The position numbers and the translations under genes were made by a program. From an uncultured virus (IMG/VR IMGVR_UViG_3300042502_001806) (lineage: Duplodnaviria > Heunggongvirae > Uroviricota > Caudoviricetes), in IMG/VR virus record IMGVR_UViG_3300042502_001806: 64,000 bases of DNA; one strand, 5' to 3'. Numbering within the stretch: position 1 is the stretch's first letter; each line of letters begins with the position of its first letter. Shown here in pieces: positions 527 through 56,054 of the stretch. The notes below the pieces were generated by a model that was not told where the DNA came from, searched no databases, and saw only the letters and a program-made list of their open reading frames with translations.

Positions 527-922
527 ATGTCAAATATTAAAAATTGGGGTGAGTTCCTAAAAGACGTACCAACAGATGCTTTATTATCTGAGGTAGAAAA
601 GAGAAAAATTAAACAATCTACTTCAGTAAGTGAATCAGCAAATGAAATCATGAGTCAAATCGATAAAGCGATTGAAATGTTTGGTAGTTATAGTTTTGAT
701 GATAAAGGACCTTGGGAGGTTATGGATATTAATTCCATTAAGAAAAATCTATCTACAAAATCAATAAAGGAAATTGCTGCTATATTATCTGAGATTTTAG
801 ATAACTATTCAAATTATGAAAGAGCATTTAGTGTTGTTGGTTGTATCATTGGTGAGTTTGATAGTCTACCAGAAGATGAATTTGACGAACTTTTAGATTC
901 TGATGAAAGATTTGAATATTAA
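527..922 (+). CDS. Hypothetical protein
   Basis: 131-aa ORF with A-rich start context and a preceding promoter. Confidence 0.7.
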   Translation: MSNIKNWGEFLKDVPTDALLSEVEKRKIKQSTSVSESANEIMSQIDKAIEMFGSYSFDDKGPWEVMDINSIKKNLSTKSIKEIAAILSEILDNYSNYERAFSVVGCIIGEFDSLPEDEFDELLDSDERFEY

Positions 923-937
923 AAAAACCAAAATAAA

Positions 938-969
938 TTTGGTAGATTAAAAACAAATACATATCTTTG
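938..969 (+). promoter_or_regulatory. Bacteroidota-type promoter driving the leader/tRNA array
   Basis: TTTG 938-941, 20-nt spacer, TATCTTTG 962-969. Confidence 0.75.
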
Positions 970-1010
970 TACTATACTATTAAGAAATAGTAAAAAGGAA
1001 GAATAATATT

Positions 1011-1020
1011 TTAATATATA
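1011..1020 (+). promoter_or_regulatory. Putative phage late-type promoter motif TTAATATATA
   Basis: The same 10-mer recurs just upstream of many minus-strand structural or tagged genes. Confidence 0.55.
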
Positions 1021-1027
1021 AGAAATA

Positions 1028-1123
1028 ATGAAAACAATTAACGTAAATATCGCACAAGTTAACCCGCAACCTCAGGATCAGGATTCTAAGGAAGTGACTA
1101 ACTATGTCTTTACAATAAGTTAA
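1028..1123 (+). CDS. Putative attenuator leader peptide (31 aa, MKTINVNIAQVNPQPQDQDSKEVTNYVFTIS)
   Basis: ATG 1028 to TAA 1123; Pro/Gln/Asp cluster at 1064-1084; GACTAACT 1096-1103 is complementary to the terminator 5' arm. Confidence 0.7.
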   Translation: MKTINVNIAQVNPQPQDQDSKEVTNYVFTIS

Positions 1124-1147
1124 TTTGAAACATTAAACGATTTGTAT

Positions 1148-1180
1148 AACCCAGTTAGTCTTTGATTAACTGGGTTTTTT
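1148..1180 (+). terminator. Intrinsic terminator (attenuator) before the Pro/Asp tRNA array
   Basis: AACCCAGTTAGTC-ttt-GATTAACTGGGTT 13-bp stem (one G-U) followed by a T run. Confidence 0.85.
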
Positions 1181-1195
1181 GTTTTAAGTAAAAAA

Positions 1196-1269
1196 CGGGT
1201 AGTGACTAAGGTTTTAAGCACGGGTGTTCTGGAGACATCAGTTAGTCGGTTCGATTCCGACCTACCCGA
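1196..1269 (+). tRNA. tRNA-Pro(TGG)-like, atypical (C33, A37, weak D-arm)
   Basis: Acceptor CGGGTAG/CTACCCG with A73; T-arm GTCGG-TTCGATT-CCGAC; anticodon stem GGTGT/ACATC with loop TCTGGAG. Confidence 0.65.
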
Positions 1270-1331
1270 CACGAAGTATAATTGGACAGAAACGTACTCT
1301 TTCGAGAATAGAGTAAAAGAATTCTCAAAAA

Positions 1332-1419
1332 CTAGTTGTGTAGGCAATTGGCAGCCGACCTGATTTGGATTCAGGAATGAACATAAAGTTCTATGTGGGT
1401 TCGAGTCCCATCAACTAGA
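1332..1419 (+). tRNA. tRNA-Pro(TGG) with long variable arm, atypical
   Basis: Acceptor CTAGTTG/CAACTAG with A73; anticodon stem CCTGA/TCAGG, loop TTTGGAT; 19-nt variable region; T-arm GTGGG-TTCGAGT-CCCAT. Confidence 0.7.
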
Positions 1420-1428
1420 CAAAAATAC

Positions 1429-1501
1429 GGATGTGAGGTCAAACGGTTAAGATGTCTGCCTGTCACGCAGTTCGGAGCGGGTTCAACTCCCGTCACGTCC
1501 G
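1429..1501 (+). tRNA. tRNA-Asp(GTC)
   Basis: Acceptor GGATGTG/CACGTCC with G73; loop CTGTCAC; T-arm GCGGG-TTCAACT-CCCGT. Confidence 0.85.
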
Positions 1502-1507
1502 CAAATT

Positions 1508-1579
1508 GGTCCTGTAGTTAAACGGCTATAATGTCGCCCTGTCACGGCGAAGTTCGGAGTTCGATTCTCCGTGGGACCG
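1508..1579 (+). tRNA. tRNA-Asp(GTC)
   Basis: Acceptor GGTCCTG/TGGGACC with G73; stem TCGCC/GGCGA, loop CTGTCAC; T-loop TTCGATT. Confidence 0.9.
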
Positions 1580-1634
1580 CTAACAGAAAGGTTGTTAACA
1601 CCGCTACCTGAAAATAAAAGAAAGTTAACAAAAT

Positions 1635-1706
1635 GGTCTTGTCGTCCAATGGTAGGATAACCCGTTGTCTGCGGGATGGTTGCGGGTTCGAATCCCGTCA
1701 GGACCG
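1635..1706 (+). tRNA. tRNA-Asp(GTC), atypical anticodon loop (U37)
   Basis: Acceptor GGTCTTG/CAGGACC with G73; CCCG-TTGTCTG-CGGG; T-arm GCGGG-TTCGAAT-CCCGT. Confidence 0.8.
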
Positions 1707-1715
1707 CTAAAACTA

Positions 1716-1788
1716 CGGGATGTAGTTCAGTTGATAGAACGCTCGGTTTGGGACCGAGAGGTCGCAGGTTTGAGTCCTGCCATCCCGA
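1716..1788 (+). tRNA. tRNA-Pro(TGG)
   Basis: Acceptor CGGGATG/CATCCCG with A73; CTCGG-TTTGGGA-CCGAG; canonical D-arm. Confidence 0.9.
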
Positions 1789-1819
1789 CAAAGAAATAAA
1801 ATATTAATAAATAGAAATT

Positions 1820-1870
1820 ATGAGAACAACAACACAATACCAGCAACAACAAATTAATCCAACGGATTGA
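1820..1870 (+). CDS. Putative Gln-sensing attenuator leader peptide (16 aa, MRTTTQYQQQQINPTD)
   Basis: ATG 1820 to TGA 1870; 5 Gln codons (CAA tac CAG CAA CAA CAA); stop codon lies in a segment complementary to the terminator 5' arm. Confidence 0.8.
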   Translation: MRTTTQYQQQQINPTD

Positions 1871-1898
1871 TAACGGTATCGTATTGTTTAAACTTTAC

Positions 1899-1932
1899 AA
1901 ACCCTATTCAATCTGATTGAGTAGGGTTTTTT
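1899..1932 (+). terminator. Intrinsic terminator (attenuator) before tRNA-Gln x2 and glnS
   Basis: AAACCCTATTCAA-tctga-TTGAGTAGGGTTT stem followed by a T run, ending 2 nt before tRNA-Gln. Confidence 0.85.
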
Positions 1933-1934
1933 AT

Positions 1935-2006
1935 TGCTCCATAGTATATGGGTGATCATATCTGTCTTTGAAACAGATGAGCTTGGTTCGAGTCCAAGTG
2001 GAGCAA
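1935..2006 (+). tRNA. tRNA-Gln(TTG)
   Basis: Acceptor TGCTCCA/TGGAGCA; TCTGT-CTTTGAA-ACAGA; T-arm CTTGG-TTCGAGT-CCAAG. Confidence 0.85.
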
Positions 2007-2012
2007 CAACAT

Positions 2013-2083
2013 TGTCTCGTAGTGTAACGGCAGCACAGAAGATTTTGACTCTTCTAGTCTAGGTTCGAATCCTAGCGAGACAA
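2013..2083 (+). tRNA. tRNA-Gln(TTG)
   Basis: Acceptor TGTCTCG/CGAGACA; GAAGA-TTTTGAC-TCTTC; T-arm CTAGG-TTCGAAT-CCTAG. Confidence 0.9.
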
Positions 2084-2101
2084 CTAAAAAATATAAACAT
2101 T

Positions 2102-3706
2102 ATGAATTTCATTGAAGATAAAATACTAGAAAAAGGTAATCTTGATAAATTAACATTAAGATTTCCACCAGAACCAAATGGTTACTTACATATTGGTCAC
2201 GCTAAATCTATTATACTAAATTTTGGTTTAGCTGAAAAATATAATAGACCTTGTAACTTGAGATTTGATGATACAAATCCAACTACTGAAGATACACACT
2301 TTGTTGAATCAATTATAAAAGATATAGAATGGTTAGGCTACAAACCAGCCAATATTTTTTATACATCTGATTATTTTGATTTTCTTTATGATTGTGCTGT
2401 TACTTTAATTAAAAAAGGATTAGCTTATGTTGATGATTCAACATCTGAAGAAATTGCTTTAATGAAAGGAACTCCAACTTCAGTTGGTAAAGACTCACCT
2501 TATAAATCTAGAAGTATAGAAGAAAACTTAGACTTATTTAATAGAATGAGATTAGGTGAATTTGTTGAAGGTTCTAAAATATTGAGAGCCAACATTGATA
2601 TGACTTCTCCAAATATGATTTTAAGAGATCCGGTTCTTTATAGAATAATATCTAAGTCACATCACAAAACTGGTGATACTTGGAAGATTTATCCAATGTA
2701 TGACTTTGCTCATCCACTTTCTGATTATAAAGAAGGTATCACCGATTCTTTATGTACTTTAGAATTTGAGGTTCATAGACCTTTATATATGTGGGTATTA
2801 GAAAATTGTGATTTAGAAAATCCACTTTCAGAAGAAACTGAGTTTGCTCGTTTGAACATTGACTATACAGTTATGTCAAAAAGAAAATTAAAAAGATTAG
2901 TTGAAGAAGGATTTGTAGATGGTTGGGATGATCCAAGAATGCCAACTATTTCTGGTTTAAGAAGAAGAGGTTTTACGCCAAATGCTATTAAAGACTTTTG
3001 TGATAGAATTTCTGTTACTAGAAAAGAATCAGTTGTTTCTTATTTACTTTTAGAAGAATGTTTAAGAACTGATTTGAATGTAGTCACTAATAGATTAATG
3101 GGTGTTATGGATCCAGTTAAGTTAGTTATTACCAATTGGGATATGGGAACTGAAATGGTTGAAGTTGAAAACAATCCTGGTGATGAAAGTGCTGGTATGA
3201 GAATGATTCCTTTTAGTGGTGAACTATTTATTGAAAGAGAAGATTTTAGAGAAGAAGCTAATAACAAATTTCATAGATTGAAACTAGGTGGTGAAGTAAG
3301 ATTAAAAGGTGCTTATGTTATTATGGCTAACGAAGTTATCAAAGATGAATTTGGAGAAATCACTGAGATCAGATGTGCTTACGATCCTTTAACAAGATCA
3401 GGTATGACTTTTGAAAGAAAGATTAAAGGAACTATTCACTGGGTATCTGCTGAGCACGGAGTCAGAGTTGGTGTAAATGAATATGAAAGATTATTTAATG
3501 ATGAATCACCGGATAAAAATGAAGATGATTTTATCAATTACATCAACCCAGGTTCACTTATAATTAATGATAAGGCAATCTTTGAGCCTCACGTTTTAAA
3601 CGTCAAGGAGCCAGTTCAAATGATGAGAAAAGGGTATTATATTTTAGATACTGATGGTAAAAGTTTCAACAAAACTGTTAGTTTGAAAGAAGGGTGGGTA
3701 GGTTAA
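2102..3706 (+). CDS. glnS: Glutaminyl-tRNA synthetase
   Basis: RFPPEPNGYLHIGH (HIGH), VMSKRKL (KMSKS-like), YPMYDFAH, GWDDPRMPT, KGTIHWVS anticodon-binding barrel. Confidence 0.97.
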   Translation: MNFIEDKILEKGNLDKLTLRFPPEPNGYLHIGHAKSIILNFGLAEKYNRPCNLRFDDTNPTTEDTHFVESIIKDIEWLGYKPANIFYTSDYFDFLYDCAVTLIKKGLAYVDDSTSEEIALMKGTPTSVGKDSPYKSRSIEENLDLFNRMRLGEFVEGSKILRANIDMTSPNMILRDPVLYRIISKSHHKTGDTWKIYPMYDFAHPLSDYKEGITDSLCTLEFEVHRPLYMWVLENCDLENPLSEETEFARLNIDYTVMSKRKLKRLVEEGFVDGWDDPRMPTISGLRRRGFTPNAIKDFCDRISVTRKESVVSYLLLEECLRTDLNVVTNRLMGVMDPVKLVITNWDMGTEMVEVENNPGDESAGMRMIPFSGELFIEREDFREEANNKFHRLKLGGEVRLKGAYVIMANEVIKDEFGEITEIRCAYDPLTRSGMTFERKIKGTIHWVSAEHGVRVGVNEYERLFNDESPDKNEDDFINYINPGSLIINDKAIFEPHVLNVKEPVQMMRKGYYILDTDGKSFNKTVSLKEGWVG

Positions 3707-4086
3707 GCTACCTCCCATCTACCATCTGATAAAAATTTATAAGAGCCGACAAACTCAAATTTTTTCCATTGGTCTGGAGATATTAAGGAAAGGAATTCTT
3801 CATTGGATTCCTTTTTATATAAGTGATAAATTTCACCAGATATTGGAGTAAAGTTGTGAGTAGCCATATAAAGTCTTTCATTCATTTTAATTTCTGACAT
3901 TAGCTTTTGATACTCTTTGGTCATTTCGTCAAATTTTGACGAATAGTATTTTTTTATCTTAGTAGTTTTTTCAATTTTAAAAAGACTAATATTATCTGGT
4001 TCAAATTTTGGCGCGCCAATTTCCGTTGGATAAGTCTTACTCATTCGATTTTCTACAAAACTATCAGGTCTTTTCTTCTGTTCCAT
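3703..4086 (-). CDS. DUF2452-like protein
   Basis: EIGAPKFEP and YHLY...FLSLISPDQW pattern, recalled as DUF2452. Confidence 0.6.
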   Translation of the reverse strand: MEQKKRPDSFVENRMSKTYPTEIGAPKFEPDNISLFKIEKTTKIKKYYSSKFDEMTKEYQKLMSEIKMNERLYMATHNFTPISGEIYHLYKKESNEEFLSLISPDQWKKFEFVGSYKFLSDGRWEVA

Positions 4087-4195
4087 ACAATTATATTTAT
4101 AATATTAATAATGTTTATAAAGGATATCATGATGTTTCATGAATTTAAATTTCCTAAAACAAAAAAAAATTATTATATTTGTGAATATATAATCT

Positions 4196-4651
4196 ATGTA
4201 CTGCGTTTACAAAATTAAATTTACTAAGTCACCATTTGACTTAAATGAGGACTATGACAGACTTTCTGACATAGACAAGGAGAAGATTGCTGATATGAAT
4301 GCGGATTCTTTTTTTGATTATGAAGAAGATGGCGTTTATACATTTTTTACTATAGCTGAACCAATCGAAGTTAAAAGATATTTAGGTGTACTTTCAGAAA
4401 ATTTAGTTAAATTTGAACTAACTGATTTATCTAAAGATATATTAAAATCAAATTTTGATTTAAATTTAGAATTAGGTCCTAAAGTGAATCCAATTGATTC
4501 AATGAAATTTTCATTTTTTATTGATGATTTAGATGATTGGATATACAACAATTTAGATATTGACACTATATTAGATAGAATAAGTCAAGTGGGGTTAGAC
4601 TCACTTACTAAAGTAGAAAAAGAATTTCTTAACAATAATTATAACGTATGA
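4196..4651 (+). CDS. Hypothetical protein
   Basis: 151-aa ORF; C-terminal IDTILDRISQVGLDSLTKVEKEFL helical-hairpin motif. Confidence 0.7.
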   Translation: MYCVYKIKFTKSPFDLNEDYDRLSDIDKEKIADMNADSFFDYEEDGVYTFFTIAEPIEVKRYLGVLSENLVKFELTDLSKDILKSNFDLNLELGPKVNPIDSMKFSFFIDDLDDWIYNNLDIDTILDRISQVGLDSLTKVEKEFLNNNYNV

Positions 4652-12131: not shown

Positions 12132-12545
12132 ATGAAAGTAAGTTTTGATTTTGACCACACGTTATCTAGAAAAGATGTTCAGGTATTTGCCAAACAATTG
12201 GTAGATGAAGGACACGAAGTTTGGATTGTTACCTCAAGATTTAGTGATGAAGCGGCAAAAGAAAAGAAGTGGCATTGGATAGAAGGACAAAATCAAAAAC
12301 TATTTGATGTTGCGGAAGAATGTGGTATTAAAAAAGAAAATATTCAATTCACTTGTATGGAATCTAAGTCTTACTTTTTAGAAGGCAAAGGATTTATATT
12401 TCATTTAGATGATGATGATATTGAATTGATGGATATTTTTGAGTCTAATAAATTTGACCAAAGTAAATGTTTCCCAGTTCATGTAGACCATTTTGAGTGG
12501 AAAGAAACTTGTCGAAATATTTTGAAGAAAAATTTGGCAGAATAA
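12132..12545 (+). CDS. HAD-superfamily phosphatase-like protein
   Basis: MKVSFDFDHTL (DxD), IVTSR, HLDD; start at 12132 after TATCTTTG. Confidence 0.8.
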   Translation: MKVSFDFDHTLSRKDVQVFAKQLVDEGHEVWIVTSRFSDEAAKEKKWHWIEGQNQKLFDVAEECGIKKENIQFTCMESKSYFLEGKGFIFHLDDDDIELMDIFESNKFDQSKCFPVHVDHFEWKETCRNILKKNLAE

Positions 12546-12564
12546 GAAATAAGTATTATCTTTG
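12533..12564 (+). promoter_or_regulatory. Bacteroidota-type promoter
   Basis: TTTG 12533-12536, 20-nt spacer, TATCTTTG 12557-12564. Confidence 0.75.
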
Positions 12565-13176: not shown

Positions 13177-13205
13177 ATCCTATCAAAATGATAGGATTTT
13201 TTTTT
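13177..13205 (+). terminator. Intrinsic terminator
   Basis: ATCCTATCA-aaa-TGATAGGAT followed by a T run. Confidence 0.8.
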
Positions 13206-13271
13206 GATATTTAATAAAAAAATCATATCTTTGCTGCTATAAAAAATATAATCTAAAACATATTTATATTA

Positions 13272-46859: not shown

Positions 46860-46891
46860 TTTGGTGTAATCAAAATTAATTTATATCTTTG
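46860..46891 (+). promoter_or_regulatory. Bacteroidota-type promoter for the RNA ligase gene
   Basis: TTTG 46860-46863, 20-nt spacer, TATCTTTG 46884-46891. Confidence 0.75.
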
Positions 46892-56022: not shown

Positions 56023-56054
56023 TTTGGACAATCCACTTATTTTCCTTATCTTTG
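56023..56054 (+). promoter_or_regulatory. Bacteroidota-type promoter, back-to-back with the late motif
   Basis: TTTG 56023-56026, 20-nt spacer, TATCTTTG 56047-56054. Confidence 0.75.

What the first reader, a model, noticed from the sequence alone, without database searches (positions are those of the whole stretch)
1820..3706. Gln-codon leader peptide attenuator controlling phage tRNA-Gln genes and glutaminyl-tRNA synthetase
Seen: a 16-codon ORF (MRTTTQYQQQQINPTD, 1820-1870, five Gln codons) is followed by a strong terminator (1899-1932) that ends 2 nt before tRNA-Gln(TTG), tRNA-Gln(TTG) and glnS. GGATTGA (1864-1870, containing the leader stop codon) can pair with TCAATCT (1908-1914) in the terminator 5' arm, extended by GGT/ACC. 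ACAATAC (1834-1840) can pair with GTATTGT (1881-1887). Established: this is the architecture of trp/his/pheST ribosome-mediated attenuation. Inference: a ribosome stalled on Gln codons frees the antiterminator, so tRNA-Gln and GlnRS are made only when charged tRNA-Gln is scarce (starvation, or cleavage by host anticodon nucleases). I know of no description of leader-peptide attenuation of tRNA genes in a phage.
Basis: partly seen in the sequence, partly recalled or inferred. Interest (0 to 1): 0.95.

Follow-up and report, generated by a model that had tools for sequence, protein, structure and literature searches.

The report
Gln-codon leader attenuator gating phage tRNA-Gln/glnS
A giant lake phage places its glutamine tRNA genes and glutaminyl-tRNA synthetase behind a tiny test gene full of glutamine codons and a switchable transcription stop, probably so that they are made only when ribosomes read glutamine codons slowly; related phages have a matching test gene before every tRNA block.

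Summary

Twenty distinct related huge-phage sequences keep a Gln-run ORF, a perfect terminator stem and tRNA-Gln. By contrast, 0 of 57 bacterial-type glnS loci do, and phage glnS genes without tRNA-Gln upstream have no leader.

The element is one of a family. In four related genomes each tRNA array is preceded by a small ORF rich in the codons its own tRNAs read, for example KKKKK before five tRNA-Lys. In each genome the observed leader-to-array assignment is the single best of all permutations (1/5040, 1/720, 1/720, 1/24). The window has a second such module at 1028-1176 (Pro/Asp/Gln leader).

Each leader is also complementary to its own terminator's 5' arm. In the window's subgroup this antiterminator is conserved but shows no nucleotide-level covariation.

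Best reading: ribosome-mediated attenuation acting as a tRNA-supply feedback. Translation and switching were not tested.

Eight literature searches found no description. Earlier notes of this scan report the same kind of element in other phages.

The parts
938..969 (+). Bacteroidetes-type promoter-like motif: TTTG (938-941), 20-nt spacer, TATCTTTG (962-969). Likely start of the whole transcription unit.
   Evidence: Sequence. The motif TTTG-N19-21-TAnnTTTG occurs 10 times in the window against 2.66 expected, and 0 of 100 shuffles reach 10. The same motif stands before the homologous leader in L001 and L002 and before most modules. The consensus itself is recalled, not taken from a call.
1028..1123 (+). 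First leader ORF, MKTINVNIAQVNPQPQDQDSKEVTNYVFTIS. Its core PQPQDQD is made of Pro, Gln and Asp codons.
   Evidence: The ORF and its D/Q/P core are conserved in L001 and L002. The Gln-leader model R1 matches 1028-1182 weakly (24.5 bits, E 0.093).
1095..1104 (+). Candidate antiterminator strand of module 1 (TGACTAACTA), complementary to the 5' arm of terminator 1.
   Evidence: Duplex -9.4 kcal/mol, z -1.3; 31 of 300 shuffles do as well, so it is weak on its own. The equivalent segment is present in L001 and L002.
1148..1183 (+). Terminator 1: 13-bp stem, 3-nt loop, T-run.
1196..1789 (+). tRNA array 1: a tRNA-like gene (1196-1269), tRNA-Pro(tgg) 1332-1420, tRNA-Asp(gtc) 1429-1502, 1508-1580 and 1635-1707, and tRNA-Pro(tgg) 1716-1789.
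   Evidence: ARAGORN and Rfam RF00005. The 1196-1269 gene scores 29.2 bits against a cut-off of 29.
1820..1870 (+). Gln leader ORF MRTTTQYQQQQINPTD. Gln codons at 1835-37 and 1841-52; stop TGA at 1868-70.
   Evidence: Conserved in 20 distinct sequences.
1828..1888 (+). Anti-antiterminator. P1 pairs 1828-1841 with 1875-1888; P2 pairs 1853-1860 (ATTAATCC) with 1864-1871 (GGATTGAT). The Gln run 1842-1852 sits in the internal loop between them.
   Evidence: Minimum-energy fold. P2 is found by RNAalifold. Inner P1: 5 of 6 pairs change on both sides, 84% of cells paired. P2: 3 of 8 pairs, 83% paired.
1863..1877 (+). Antiterminator 5' strand: CGGATTGA (1863-1870, contains the stop codon) and GGT (1875-1877).
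   Evidence: Best duplex with the terminator 5' arm plus loop is -12.4 kcal/mol. 78% of cells are paired across 17 homologs against 20-49% when slid, but there is no covariation.
1899..1934 (+). Terminator 2: 5' arm 1899-1912, loop 1913-1915, 3' arm 1916-1929, T-run 1927-1932. Positions 1901-1903 and 1908-1915 are shared with the antiterminator.
   Evidence: All 20 homologs have perfect 12-15 bp stems. 12 of 14 pairs change on both sides, 97% of cells paired, 0 of 500 shuffles as high.
1935..2084 (+). Two tRNA-Gln(UUG) genes, 1935-2007 and 2013-2084.
2102..3706 (+). glnS, glutaminyl-tRNA synthetase (534 aa). It starts 17 nt after the second tRNA-Gln; I saw no terminator or promoter motif in between.
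   Evidence: The motifs LHIGH and VMSKR can be read in the translation. No terminator-like site lies between 1930 and 3706 on the + strand.

Best explanation
This is a ribosome-mediated (leader-peptide) transcription attenuator that works as a supply sensor for glutamine decoding.

Transcription starts at the host-type promoter near 938. It must pass terminator 1 (1148-1176), which is gated by a Pro/Asp/Gln leader, then run through the tRNA-Pro/Asp array. It then meets the Gln leader (1820-1870) and terminator 2 (1899-1929).

OFF, no ribosome on the leader: stems P1 and P2 lock up 1863-1877 and the terminator forms.

OFF, fast translation: the ribosome reaches the TGA at 1868-70 and covers 1863-1877. 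Again the terminator forms, and RNA polymerase stops 1-5 nt before tRNA-Gln.

ON, slow Gln decoding: the ribosome waits on the Gln codons (1835-37, 1841-52) because charged tRNA-Gln is scarce. It masks the 5' strands of P1 and P2 and leaves 1863-1877 free. That segment pairs with 1901-1915 as soon as it is made, so the terminator's 5' arm is unavailable. Transcription then runs into the two tRNA-Gln genes and glnS.

The output (tRNA-Gln and its charging enzyme) relieves the stall, which makes a negative feedback loop.

Shown: the anatomy, its conservation, the frame-specific match between leader codons and downstream tRNAs, terminator covariation, and leader-terminator complementarity. Inferred: translation of the leader, the three states, and the physiological trigger.
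For: 1. Anatomy is as described.

2. Conservation. All 10 loci with tRNA-Gln upstream of glnS (window, two GenBank huge-phage records, seven IMG/VR contigs) have an ATG-started ORF with at least 4 consecutive Gln codons, then a terminator, then tRNA-Gln. Among metagenome relatives, 12 of 13 phage-type loci with tRNA-Gln and at least 100 nt upstream have a Gln leader. In 20 distinct sequences the Gln codons total 100 CAA and 19 CAG, the CAG position moves, and run length varies from 2 to 7 whole codons.

3. Specificity. 0 of 57 bacterial-type glnS loci (54-57% identity) have tRNA-Gln or a QQQ small ORF upstream. Phage glnS without tRNA-Gln upstream (L009, L040, L047) has no leader.

4. Family-level codon match over 27 modules. 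Cognate residue fraction is 0.342 against 0.151 when tRNA sets are permuted (0 of 20000). Within genomes the true assignment is the unique best: 1/5040, 1/720, 1/720, 1/24.

5. Frame specificity. Cognate fraction is 0.342 in frame against 0.148 and 0.116 in the other frames. The true frame is best in 26 of 27. Internal stops occur in 0, 22 and 23 of 27.

6. Codon level. 233 of 262 cognate codons are readable by the downstream anticodons. Arg is CGN before tRNA-Arg(acg/gcg) in 7 of 7 cases and AGA before tRNA-Arg(tct) in 4 of 5.

7. Terminator. 12 of 14 pairs change on both sides, 97% of cells paired, 0 of 500 shuffles as high.

8. Antiterminator. Summed duplex energy of cognate leader/terminator pairs is best or second best of all permutations: 1/5040, 2/720, 2/720, 1/24. 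Three Gln-leader lineages with unrelated terminator stems (L011, L044, L045) have a matching, different leader segment: -13 to -16 kcal/mol cognate against -3 to -9 with the GATTGA-type group's sequences.

9. Masked folding. With the RNA cut before the 3' arm, the 5' arm is paired upstream at a mean of 11.05 nt when a ribosome is placed on the Gln run, against 2.65 nt at the stop codon. Stall exceeds stop in 20 of 20.

10. aaRS genes are under the same logic in relatives. A leader MKTMTINNRNRLTDII plus terminator precedes AsnRS and an ArgRS-like gene. A leader MINNNVNILLLPLT precedes a LeuRS-like gene. In G001 the HisRS-like and LeuRS-like genes end the arrays that hold tRNA-His and tRNA-Leu.
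Against: No direct evidence that the leader is translated or that the terminator is ever read through in a regulated way.

In the window's own subgroup the antiterminator is weak: 8 bp, a 4x4 internal loop, then 3 bp. Against the 5' arm alone it gives -5.9 kcal/mol, z -0.77, and 62 of 300 shuffles do as well. It shows no nucleotide covariation: 2 pairs with a change on both sides, and 219 of 500 shuffles do as well.

That antiterminator leaves most of the lower terminator stem free, so it may not block the hairpin efficiently.

In the no-ribosome fold of the truncated RNA the antiterminator already forms in the window and in several of the 20 homologs. The OFF state therefore rests on a kinetic argument.

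The Gln leader has no promoter of its own in the window and sits 30 nt after a tRNA. Its translation must therefore start on a tRNA-precursor transcript.

Modules in different genomes are homologous and not independent. AGT Ser codons in the Ser/Arg leaders are not matched by a listed downstream tRNA. One phage-type locus (L048, 61% identity) has tRNA-Gln(ctg) without a leader.
Confidence: 0.8

Rival explanations
1. The hairpins are plain constitutive terminators, insulators or RNA-processing signals between tRNA sub-operons. The small ORFs are untranslated by-products of AT-rich sequence, and the tRNA-Gln genes are expressed by leaky read-through or an unrecognised promoter.
For: Strong terminators are common in the window: 13 on the + strand and 10 on the - strand. 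No expression data exist. The antiterminator in the window's subgroup is weak and does not covary.
Against: It cannot explain the frame-specific enrichment of exactly the codons read by the downstream tRNAs: unique best permutation in four genomes, and 26 of 27 best in frame. It cannot explain the Arg codon-box match, the conserved start and stop in 20 of 20 Gln leaders, or the leader-to-own-terminator complementarity. There are only 2 nt between the T-run and tRNA-Gln, which leaves no room for a promoter.
Confidence: 0.07
2. This is a T-box-like riboswitch without a ribosome. The run of CAA codons, displayed in the internal loop between P1 and P2, is read directly by the anticodon of uncharged tRNA-Gln, which stabilises the antiterminator.
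For: In the minimum-energy fold the Gln run 1842-1852 lies unpaired in an internal loop, somewhat like a specifier loop. The regulated genes (an aaRS) are the classical T-box targets.
Against: No T-box or any other leader family matched at E up to 1 in Rfam. A start codon, reading frame and stop are conserved in all 20 leaders, and the other frames are full of stops. Sister leaders mix up to about 10 different amino acids matching 17-19 downstream tRNAs, which a single specifier cannot do. I saw no conserved counterpart of the tRNA 3'-end-binding bulge in the alignments.
Confidence: 0.04
3. The small ORFs are translated, but they act through something other than terminator switching. For example, they could be micro-peptides with a function of their own, or translation could affect processing or stability of the tRNA precursor.
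For: The leaders share an N-terminal pattern (MKT../MTT..) across paralogs. Translation is plausible. The OFF/ON structures are only modelled.
Against: Outside the codon runs the peptides vary freely between relatives, and only the cognate residues and the RNA pairings are kept. Every leader is followed within 90 nt by a strong terminator to which it is specifically complementary.
Confidence: 0.06

Closest known systems
Leader-peptide transcription attenuators of amino-acid operons (trp, his, leu, thr, ilvGMEDA of enterobacteria); recalled textbook knowledge. Abstract of PMC1183508 seen in the listing.
   Same: A short ORF with a run of regulatory codons. An intrinsic terminator. An alternative antiterminator that shares the terminator's 5' arm. 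An upstream 1:2 pairing that a stalled ribosome would open. Multivalent leaders, as in ilv and thr, have counterparts here in the Pro/Asp/Gln and Asn/Leu/Thr/Val/Ile leaders.
   Different: The regulated genes are tRNA genes and an aminoacyl-tRNA synthetase, not biosynthetic enzymes, so the loop senses and corrects decoding capacity rather than amino-acid synthesis. It sits in a phage. It occurs as a paralogous family covering all tRNA arrays. Two attenuators stand in series in one transcription unit. The leader follows a tRNA rather than a promoter. No Rfam leader family matches.
E. coli pheST attenuator (pheM leader with Phe codons before phenylalanyl-tRNA synthetase); recalled, no paper read.
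   Same: A synthetase gene is placed behind a leader ORF rich in its own amino acid's codons and a terminator.
   Different: Here the cognate tRNA genes lie between the terminator and the synthetase and appear to be the primary target: the leader is absent where glnS lacks upstream tRNA-Gln. There is no sequence relationship.
T-box riboswitches (Rfam RF00230)
   Same: Control of aaRS expression by the charging state of the cognate tRNA through a terminator/antiterminator switch.
   Different: A T-box reads one specifier codon by direct tRNA binding and has a conserved T-box sequence. Here there is a translated-looking ORF with many codons, and no Rfam match at E up to 1.
Huge-phage translation gene sets (Al-Shayeb et al. 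2020, PMC7162821; passages read)
   Same: The two best GenBank relatives (634,780 and 642,428 bp) match the sizes of that paper's largest genomes. The paper places those in the 'Mahaphage' clade with predicted Bacteroidetes hosts, and reports up to 67 tRNAs and up to 15 aaRS per genome.
   Different: The main text has no occurrence of 'attenuat' or 'leader'. Regulation of the tRNA and aaRS genes is not addressed there. Supplements were not looked at. The identity of the records with the paper's genomes is inferred from length only.

Membership tests
Ribosome-mediated (leader-peptide) transcription attenuator | Short ORF with start and stop codon directly upstream of the regulated genes | tested here: met
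   1820-1870. Kept in 20 of 20 homologs. Other frames carry stops in 22 and 23 of 27 family members.
Ribosome-mediated (leader-peptide) transcription attenuator | Regulatory codons cognate to the product or function of the regulated genes, enriched in the leader | tested here: met
   5 of 15 residues after Met are Gln. Gln runs in 20 of 20. Family-wide permutation tests, frame test, codon-box test.
Ribosome-mediated (leader-peptide) transcription attenuator | Intrinsic terminator between the leader and the regulated genes | tested here: met
   14-bp stem plus T-run. 12 of 14 pairs covary.
Ribosome-mediated (leader-peptide) transcription attenuator | Antiterminator pairing mutually exclusive with the terminator | tested here: met
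   1863-1877 with 1901-1915, -12.4 kcal/mol. Cognate leader/terminator pairs are best or second best of all permutations. The pairing is replaced as a whole helix in L011, L044 and L045.
Ribosome-mediated (leader-peptide) transcription attenuator | Nucleotide-level covariation supporting the antiterminator in the window's own subgroup | tested here: inconclusive
   78% of cells paired against 20-49% when slid, but only 2 pairs change on both sides and 219 of 500 shuffles do as well. The bases are nearly invariant.
Ribosome-mediated (leader-peptide) transcription attenuator | Upstream (1:2) pairing that sequesters the antiterminator strand and overlaps or abuts the regulatory codons | tested here: met
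   P1 and P2 flank the Gln run. Helix 2: 5 of 6 pairs change on both sides; helix 4: 3 of 8. P2 is found by RNAalifold.
Ribosome-mediated (leader-peptide) transcription attenuator | Leader is translated, and read-through rises when the cognate charged tRNA is limiting | not testable with these tools
   Only RNA-library contigs of relatives were available. They cannot show ends, strand or levels.
T-box riboswitch | Stem I with specifier loop and the conserved T-box sequence, detectable by the Rfam model | tested here: not met
   cmscan of 1000-4200 at E up to 1 lists tRNAs and a few weak unrelated hits, and no T-box.
Curated Rfam leader families (His, Trp, Leu, Thr and similar leaders) | Match to a curated covariance model | tested here: not met
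   No such family at E up to 1. The only 'leader' hit is mgtC_leader at 1007-1112, 20.5 bits against a gathering score of 48, E 0.78.
Glutaminyl-tRNA synthetase (glnS) | Scores above the curated equivalog cut-off; class I HIGH and KMSKS-type motifs | tested here: met
   TIGR00440 656.1 bits against 425.8, and NF011291 712.2 against 681. LHIGH and VMSKR are present in the translation. The motif names are recalled.

The most novel reading that the evidence does not exclude
Huge Bacteroidetes-type phages run their whole imported decoding apparatus as a set of codon-addressed feedback loops. Every tRNA array, and the synthetases attached to it, sits behind its own mini-ORF written in the codons those tRNAs read, wired to a terminator switch. 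The phage thus measures, codon family by codon family, how well the infected cell decodes, and tops up only what is short.

The window shows a hierarchical version. An upstream Pro/Asp/Gln leader gates an operon whose distal part is gated again by a pure Gln leader, which explains why Gln codons sit in the first leader.

A further step, less likely, is that these sensors are a counter-defence: they fire when host anticodon nucleases or phage-induced host shut-off deplete specific tRNAs. Two observations fit this. One is the KKKKK leader before five tRNA-Lys. The other is an RNA ligase gene that follows a HisRS-like gene just downstream of a tRNA array in a relative.
Probability: 0.65. Interest if true: 0.92.

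Novelty: new variant of a known kind. Interest (0 to 1): 0.88.

Why it matters
Leader-peptide attenuation is a textbook mechanism, but its known outputs are amino-acid biosynthesis genes and, in the pheST case, a synthetase. Here the output is the tRNA itself, together with its charging enzyme. That closes a direct loop: slow decoding of codon X leads to more tRNA-X.

This would be a new principle for controlling tRNA gene expression. It would also give a concrete, testable answer to two open questions: why giant phages carry dozens of tRNAs and synthetases, and how they deploy them.

The leaders are compact, modular sensors of codon-specific decoding capacity, which could be useful as reporters. 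The family also offers natural experiments: the same scaffold re-coded for Gln, Lys, Ser/Arg, Glu/Tyr, His/Phe/Lys/Trp and so on. If the trigger is tRNA depletion by host defences, it links phage tRNA arrays to the arms race around anticodon nucleases.

Tried and rejected
- The window's own genome is not held, so the genome-wide test was done on relatives.
- RNAalifold on a MAFFT alignment of 16 Gln leaders recovered only P2, because the terminators were out of register. A covariance-model alignment was used instead.
- A scan of IMG/VR with the AT-rich 5'-UTR/start motif shared by several leaders was non-specific. 83 stretches matched, and 0 of the 80 loci examined had an ORF + terminator + tRNA module.
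- Four RNA-library runs were laid on 900-3800. Only assembled contigs of 90-99% similar relatives were available. Some bridge tRNA-Pro, leader, terminator and tRNA-Gln, and one bridges tRNA-Gln into glnS. Contigs cannot show transcript ends, strand or level, and DNA carry-over is possible, so this counts for nothing either way.
- tblastn of GlnRS against 50,697 phage records found no cultured relative above 54% identity, so no isolate is at hand for experiments.
- Whole-contig scan of G001 for further modules. Beyond the seven tRNA-array modules, the candidates with a promoter motif had no convincing codon logic and were not pursued.
- In G001 no separate leaders stand before the HisRS-like and LeuRS-like genes, unlike in LR745206.1.
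- Literature: eight full-text searches found no paper describing leader-peptide attenuation of tRNA genes. Only listings and abstracts were seen, except passages of PMC7162821.
Full report
**What is at the coordinates**

Reading 1500-4000 confirms an ATG at 1820 and a TGA at 1868-1870. The ORF encodes MRTTTQYQQQQINPTD, with Gln codons at 1835-37 and 1841-52.

- The consensus scan finds a terminator-like hairpin at 1899-1929 (14 pairs, 3-nt loop) followed by a T-run.
- ARAGORN places tRNA-Gln(ttg) at 1935-2007 and 2013-2084. Rfam's tRNA model agrees.
- The ORF 2102-3706 is a glutaminyl-tRNA synthetase: Pfam tRNA-synt_1c 8e-98, and NCBIfam TIGR00440 656 bits against a cut-off of 425.8.
- The RNA 1790-1934 folds at -27.6 kcal/mol, z = -3.89, and 0 of 200 shuffles fold as well.
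- That fold has three parts: stem P1 (1828-1841 with 1875-1888), hairpin P2 (1853-1860 with 1864-1871) and the terminator. The Gln run lies unpaired between P1 and P2.
- No T-box and no curated leader family matches at E up to 1.

**Where it comes from**

- The best GenBank matches are two unannotated 'uncultured phage' records of 634,780 and 642,428 bp.
- These sizes match the largest genomes of Al-Shayeb et al. 2020. That paper assigns them to the 'Mahaphage' clade and predicts Bacteroidetes hosts (passages of PMC7162821). The link is by length only.
- The motif TTTG-N19-21-TAnnTTTG, which I recall as the Bacteroidetes promoter consensus, occurs 10 times in the window against 2.66 expected; 0 of 100 shuffles reach 10.
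- Fourteen lake-water DNA runs hold 81-88% of the sampled words of 900-3800.
- The window is syntenic at 80-92% identity with a 476-kb IMG/VR contig, G001.

**Conservation of the Gln module**

- *First set.* Both GenBank relatives carry the same arrangement. GlnRS relatives in IMG/VR gave nine loci. Of these, L005 is cut at a contig end and L009 has no tRNA upstream. In all 10 loci with tRNA-Gln upstream of glnS (the window, L001, L002 and seven IMG/VR loci) there is an ATG-started ORF with at least 4 consecutive Gln codons. A terminator follows it and ends 2-50 nt before the first tRNA-Gln.
- *Metagenome set.* A metagenome scan kept 80 loci, and I examined 75. I dropped L039 and L049, which lack the gene start, and L065, L068 and L082, which have short upstream sequence and were left out untested.
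- *Phage-type loci.* Of the 18 phage-type loci (61% identity or more), 13 have a tRNA-Gln with at least 100 nt upstream, and 12 of these 13 have the leader. L042 has a weaker one, MKTNTQYQQFRIQLKG. L048 has none.
- *Negative control.* None of the 57 bacterial-type loci (54-57% identity) has tRNA-Gln or a QQQ small ORF upstream.
- *glnS alone.* Phage glnS genes without tRNA-Gln upstream (L009, L040, L047) have no leader. The leader therefore goes with the tRNA-Gln genes.
- *Operon context.* glnS rides behind the tRNA-Gln genes, 17 nt after them in the window. In some relatives protein genes intervene, with no terminator seen between.
- *Codon usage.* Across 20 distinct sequences the Gln codons total 100 CAA and 19 CAG. 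The CAG position moves, and runs are 2-7 whole codons.

**The element is one of a family**

LR745206.1 has 61 tRNA-model hits in clusters. In the stretches I fetched, seven terminators stand just before tRNA blocks, and each is preceded by a small ORF. Examples:

| Leader | Downstream tRNAs |
|---|---|
| MTTNSTHKNFSKSHKWFS... | His, Phe, His, Phe, Trp, Lys x4 |
| MKTINNTSKSSSRSSS... | Arg(acg), Ser(tga) |
| ...SYESYYEE... | Glu and Tyr |
| ...ISIAVIGNGAGAI... | Ile, Gly, Met, Gly |
| MTTMNLNMTMNLTLNVVNITLCNIR... | 19 tRNAs for Asn, Arg, Leu, Val, Ile, Thr, Met |

Three further genomes (G001, G002, G003) give more:

| Leader | Downstream tRNAs |
|---|---|
| ...IKKKKKP... | five tRNA-Lys |
| ...ISRSRSSRS... 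| Ser/Arg x6 |
| MNTLIYIGYIAEGGYEAG... | Glu, Tyr, Gly, Ile, Ala |

The window itself has a second module. The promoter-like motif at 938-969 is followed by the ORF 1028-1123 (...NPQPQDQD...) and terminator 1148-1176. After the terminator come a tRNA-like gene, tRNA-Pro, three tRNA-Asp and another tRNA-Pro. This module is conserved in L001 and L002. No promoter motif stands between it and the Gln leader, so the two attenuators are in series. That would explain the Gln codons in the first leader.

**Statistics on 27 modules**

The set has 26 modules found automatically. The window's first module was added by hand, because ARAGORN missed the tRNA-like gene and the gap exceeded my 150-nt rule. 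For L017's Gln module I took the Gln ORF rather than a longer ORF that overlaps tRNA-Pro.

| Test | Result |
|---|---|
| Leader residues whose tRNA lies downstream | 0.342 observed, 0.151 when tRNA sets are permuted (0 of 20000) |
| True assignment among all within-genome permutations | unique best: 1/5040, 1/720, 1/720, 1/24 |
| Cognate fraction by reading frame | 0.342 in frame; 0.148 and 0.116 in the other two |
| True frame is best | 26 of 27 |
| Leaders with an internal stop (frame 0, +1, +2) | 0, 22 and 23 of 27 |
| Cognate codons readable by downstream anticodons (strict wobble) | 233 of 262 |
| Arg codon box | CGN before tRNA-Arg(acg/gcg) 7 of 7; AGA before tRNA-Arg(tct) 4 of 5 |

Ser AGT codons are not matched by a listed downstream tRNA. 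Modules in different genomes are homologous, which is why the within-genome exact permutations matter.

**RNA switch**

- *Terminator and upstream stems.* A covariance model was built from seven Gln leaders. It aligned 17 homologs; the window itself was not among the sources, and L003 has the same terminator, P1 and P2. On that alignment 12 of the terminator's 14 pairs change on both sides, and 97% of cells are paired. Inner P1 has 5 of 6 such pairs and P2 has 3 of 8. No shuffle of 500 reaches the observed values, and sliding the partners drops pairing to 30-45%. The alignment is fitted to this structure and leans towards it. A structure-free check agrees: all 20 terminators are perfect 12-15 bp stems with 4-6 pair types at the middle positions.
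- *Antiterminator, family level.* Against the 5' arm alone, mean z is -2.1 and 13 of 27 modules have z below -2. With arm plus loop, cognate leader/terminator pairs are the best or second best of all permutations: 1/5040, 2/720, 2/720, 1/24.
- *Antiterminator, window.* The window's Gln leader is weak against the arm alone: -5.9 kcal/mol, z -0.77. With arm plus loop its antiterminator is CGGATTGA/TCAATCTG plus GGT/ACC, -12.4 kcal/mol.
- *Helix-level covariation.* Three Gln-leader lineages with unrelated terminator stems (L011, L044, L045) carry a different, matching leader segment. Cognate pairs give -13 to -16 kcal/mol, against -3 to -9 when paired with sequences of the GATTGA-type group.
- *No nucleotide covariation in the window's subgroup.* Within that subgroup the antiterminator is conserved (78% of cells paired, against 20-49% when slid). 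It has no nucleotide covariation, and 219 of 500 shuffles do as well.
- *Masked folding.* With the RNA cut before the 3' arm, the 5' arm is paired upstream at a mean of 11.05 nt with a ribosome placed on the Gln run. The mean is 2.65 nt with the ribosome at the stop codon and 7.5 nt with none. Stall exceeds stop in 20 of 20.
- *Shared architecture.* The Gln-leader model also hits the paralogous leaders weakly. Examples are L012 26082-26218 at 38.8 bits and window 1028-1182 at 24.5 bits.

**Synthetases belong to the same circuit**

- In LR745206.1 the leader MKTMTINNRNRLTDII plus a terminator precedes an AsnRS (TIGR00457 394.5 against 342.6) and an ArgRS-like gene.
- MINNNVNILLLPLT plus a terminator precedes a LeuRS-like gene. 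MRALHTYKITIDLG plus a terminator precedes a HisRS-like gene; the codon match there is weak.
- In G001, HisRS-like and LeuRS-like genes instead sit at the 3' ends of the arrays that hold tRNA-His and tRNA-Leu. The window's glnS sits behind tRNA-Gln in the same way.

**Mechanism proposed**

The model has three states.

- No ribosome: P1 and P2 hold 1863-1877, and the terminator forms.
- Fast translation: the ribosome reaches TGA 1868-70 and covers the same segment, and the terminator forms.
- Slow Gln decoding: the ribosome sits on about 1826-1862, so 1863-1877 pairs with 1901-1915. The terminator cannot form, and tRNA-Gln and glnS are transcribed.

This is inferred from anatomy and comparison only. 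Weak points:

- The window's antiterminator is modest.
- The lower terminator stem is left largely free.
- The OFF state rests on a kinetic argument.
- Translation must start on a tRNA-precursor transcript.
- There is no expression evidence; RNA-library contigs cannot show it.

**Comparison and novelty**

The element works like the trp/his/ilv and pheST attenuators (recalled). Its outputs, tRNA genes plus the cognate synthetase, its phage setting and its genome-wide paralogous deployment are different.

Eight full-text searches found no description. The main text of PMC7162821 has no 'attenuat' or 'leader'; its supplements were not looked at.

Earlier AI notes of this scan report the same kind of element before tRNA arrays of other phages, and likewise found no publication. 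None concerns this DNA. I rate it a new variant of a known kind, of high interest.

Noticed in passing
window 1196-1269; L001 1291-1365 and about 1862-1936; L002 about 882-955 and 1335-1410: The first gene after terminator 1 is a tRNA-like sequence. In the window it only just reaches the Rfam tRNA cut-off (29.2 against 29 bits) and ARAGORN does not call it. Homologs recur in the relatives, some called tRNA-Pro(tgg). The anticodon-loop region looks unusual, with C rather than U before a TGG or AGG triplet by my reading.
   Followed up: partly
window 1332-1420; many tRNAs in L001, L002, L012, L013: tRNAs that normally have a short variable region are 81-92 nt long here. Examples are the window's tRNA-Pro at 89 nt, and in relatives tRNA-Gln at 82-85, tRNA-Lys at 84-87, tRNA-Asn at 87 and tRNA-Arg at 90 nt. 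By eye the window's tRNA-Pro has a roughly 20-nt extra arm. I have no explanation.
   Followed up: no
L001 1786-1859; L023 (G002); L035 about 649: ARAGORN reports tRNAs with four-base anticodons (gtag, ggaa, ttga) or two-base anticodons inside the arrays of relatives. They could be mispredictions or unusual decoders.
   Followed up: no
L012 6321-7031 (LR745206.1): An RNA ligase gene (Pfam PF09414, 3e-23) follows the HisRS-like gene just downstream of a tRNA array. This is compatible with tRNA repair, and so with the idea that these phages face tRNA-cleaving host defences.
   Followed up: no
window 1331-1426 and 1933-2010: RNA-library contigs of close relatives skip exactly one tRNA gene each: tRNA-Pro 1332-1420 and the first tRNA-Gln (joints 1330>1427 and 1932>2011). 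tRNA copy number in these arrays therefore varies between strains. The terminator-to-tRNA junction is kept in the form that lacks the first tRNA-Gln.
   Followed up: no
window 12533-12564, 13203-13233, 46860-46891, 56023-56054 and others: Further copies of the TTTG-N19-21-TAnnTTTG promoter-like motif, most with the same TATCTTTG second box as at 962-969. This suggests the phage uses host-type promoters widely.
   Followed up: no
G001 232551-232683 (contig coordinates): A further codon-matched leader, MKNLTNISTAIIGGGAGANVTGWTML, plus a terminator stands before tRNA-Gly, tRNA-Gly and tRNA-Ala in the window's closest large relative.
   Followed up: partly
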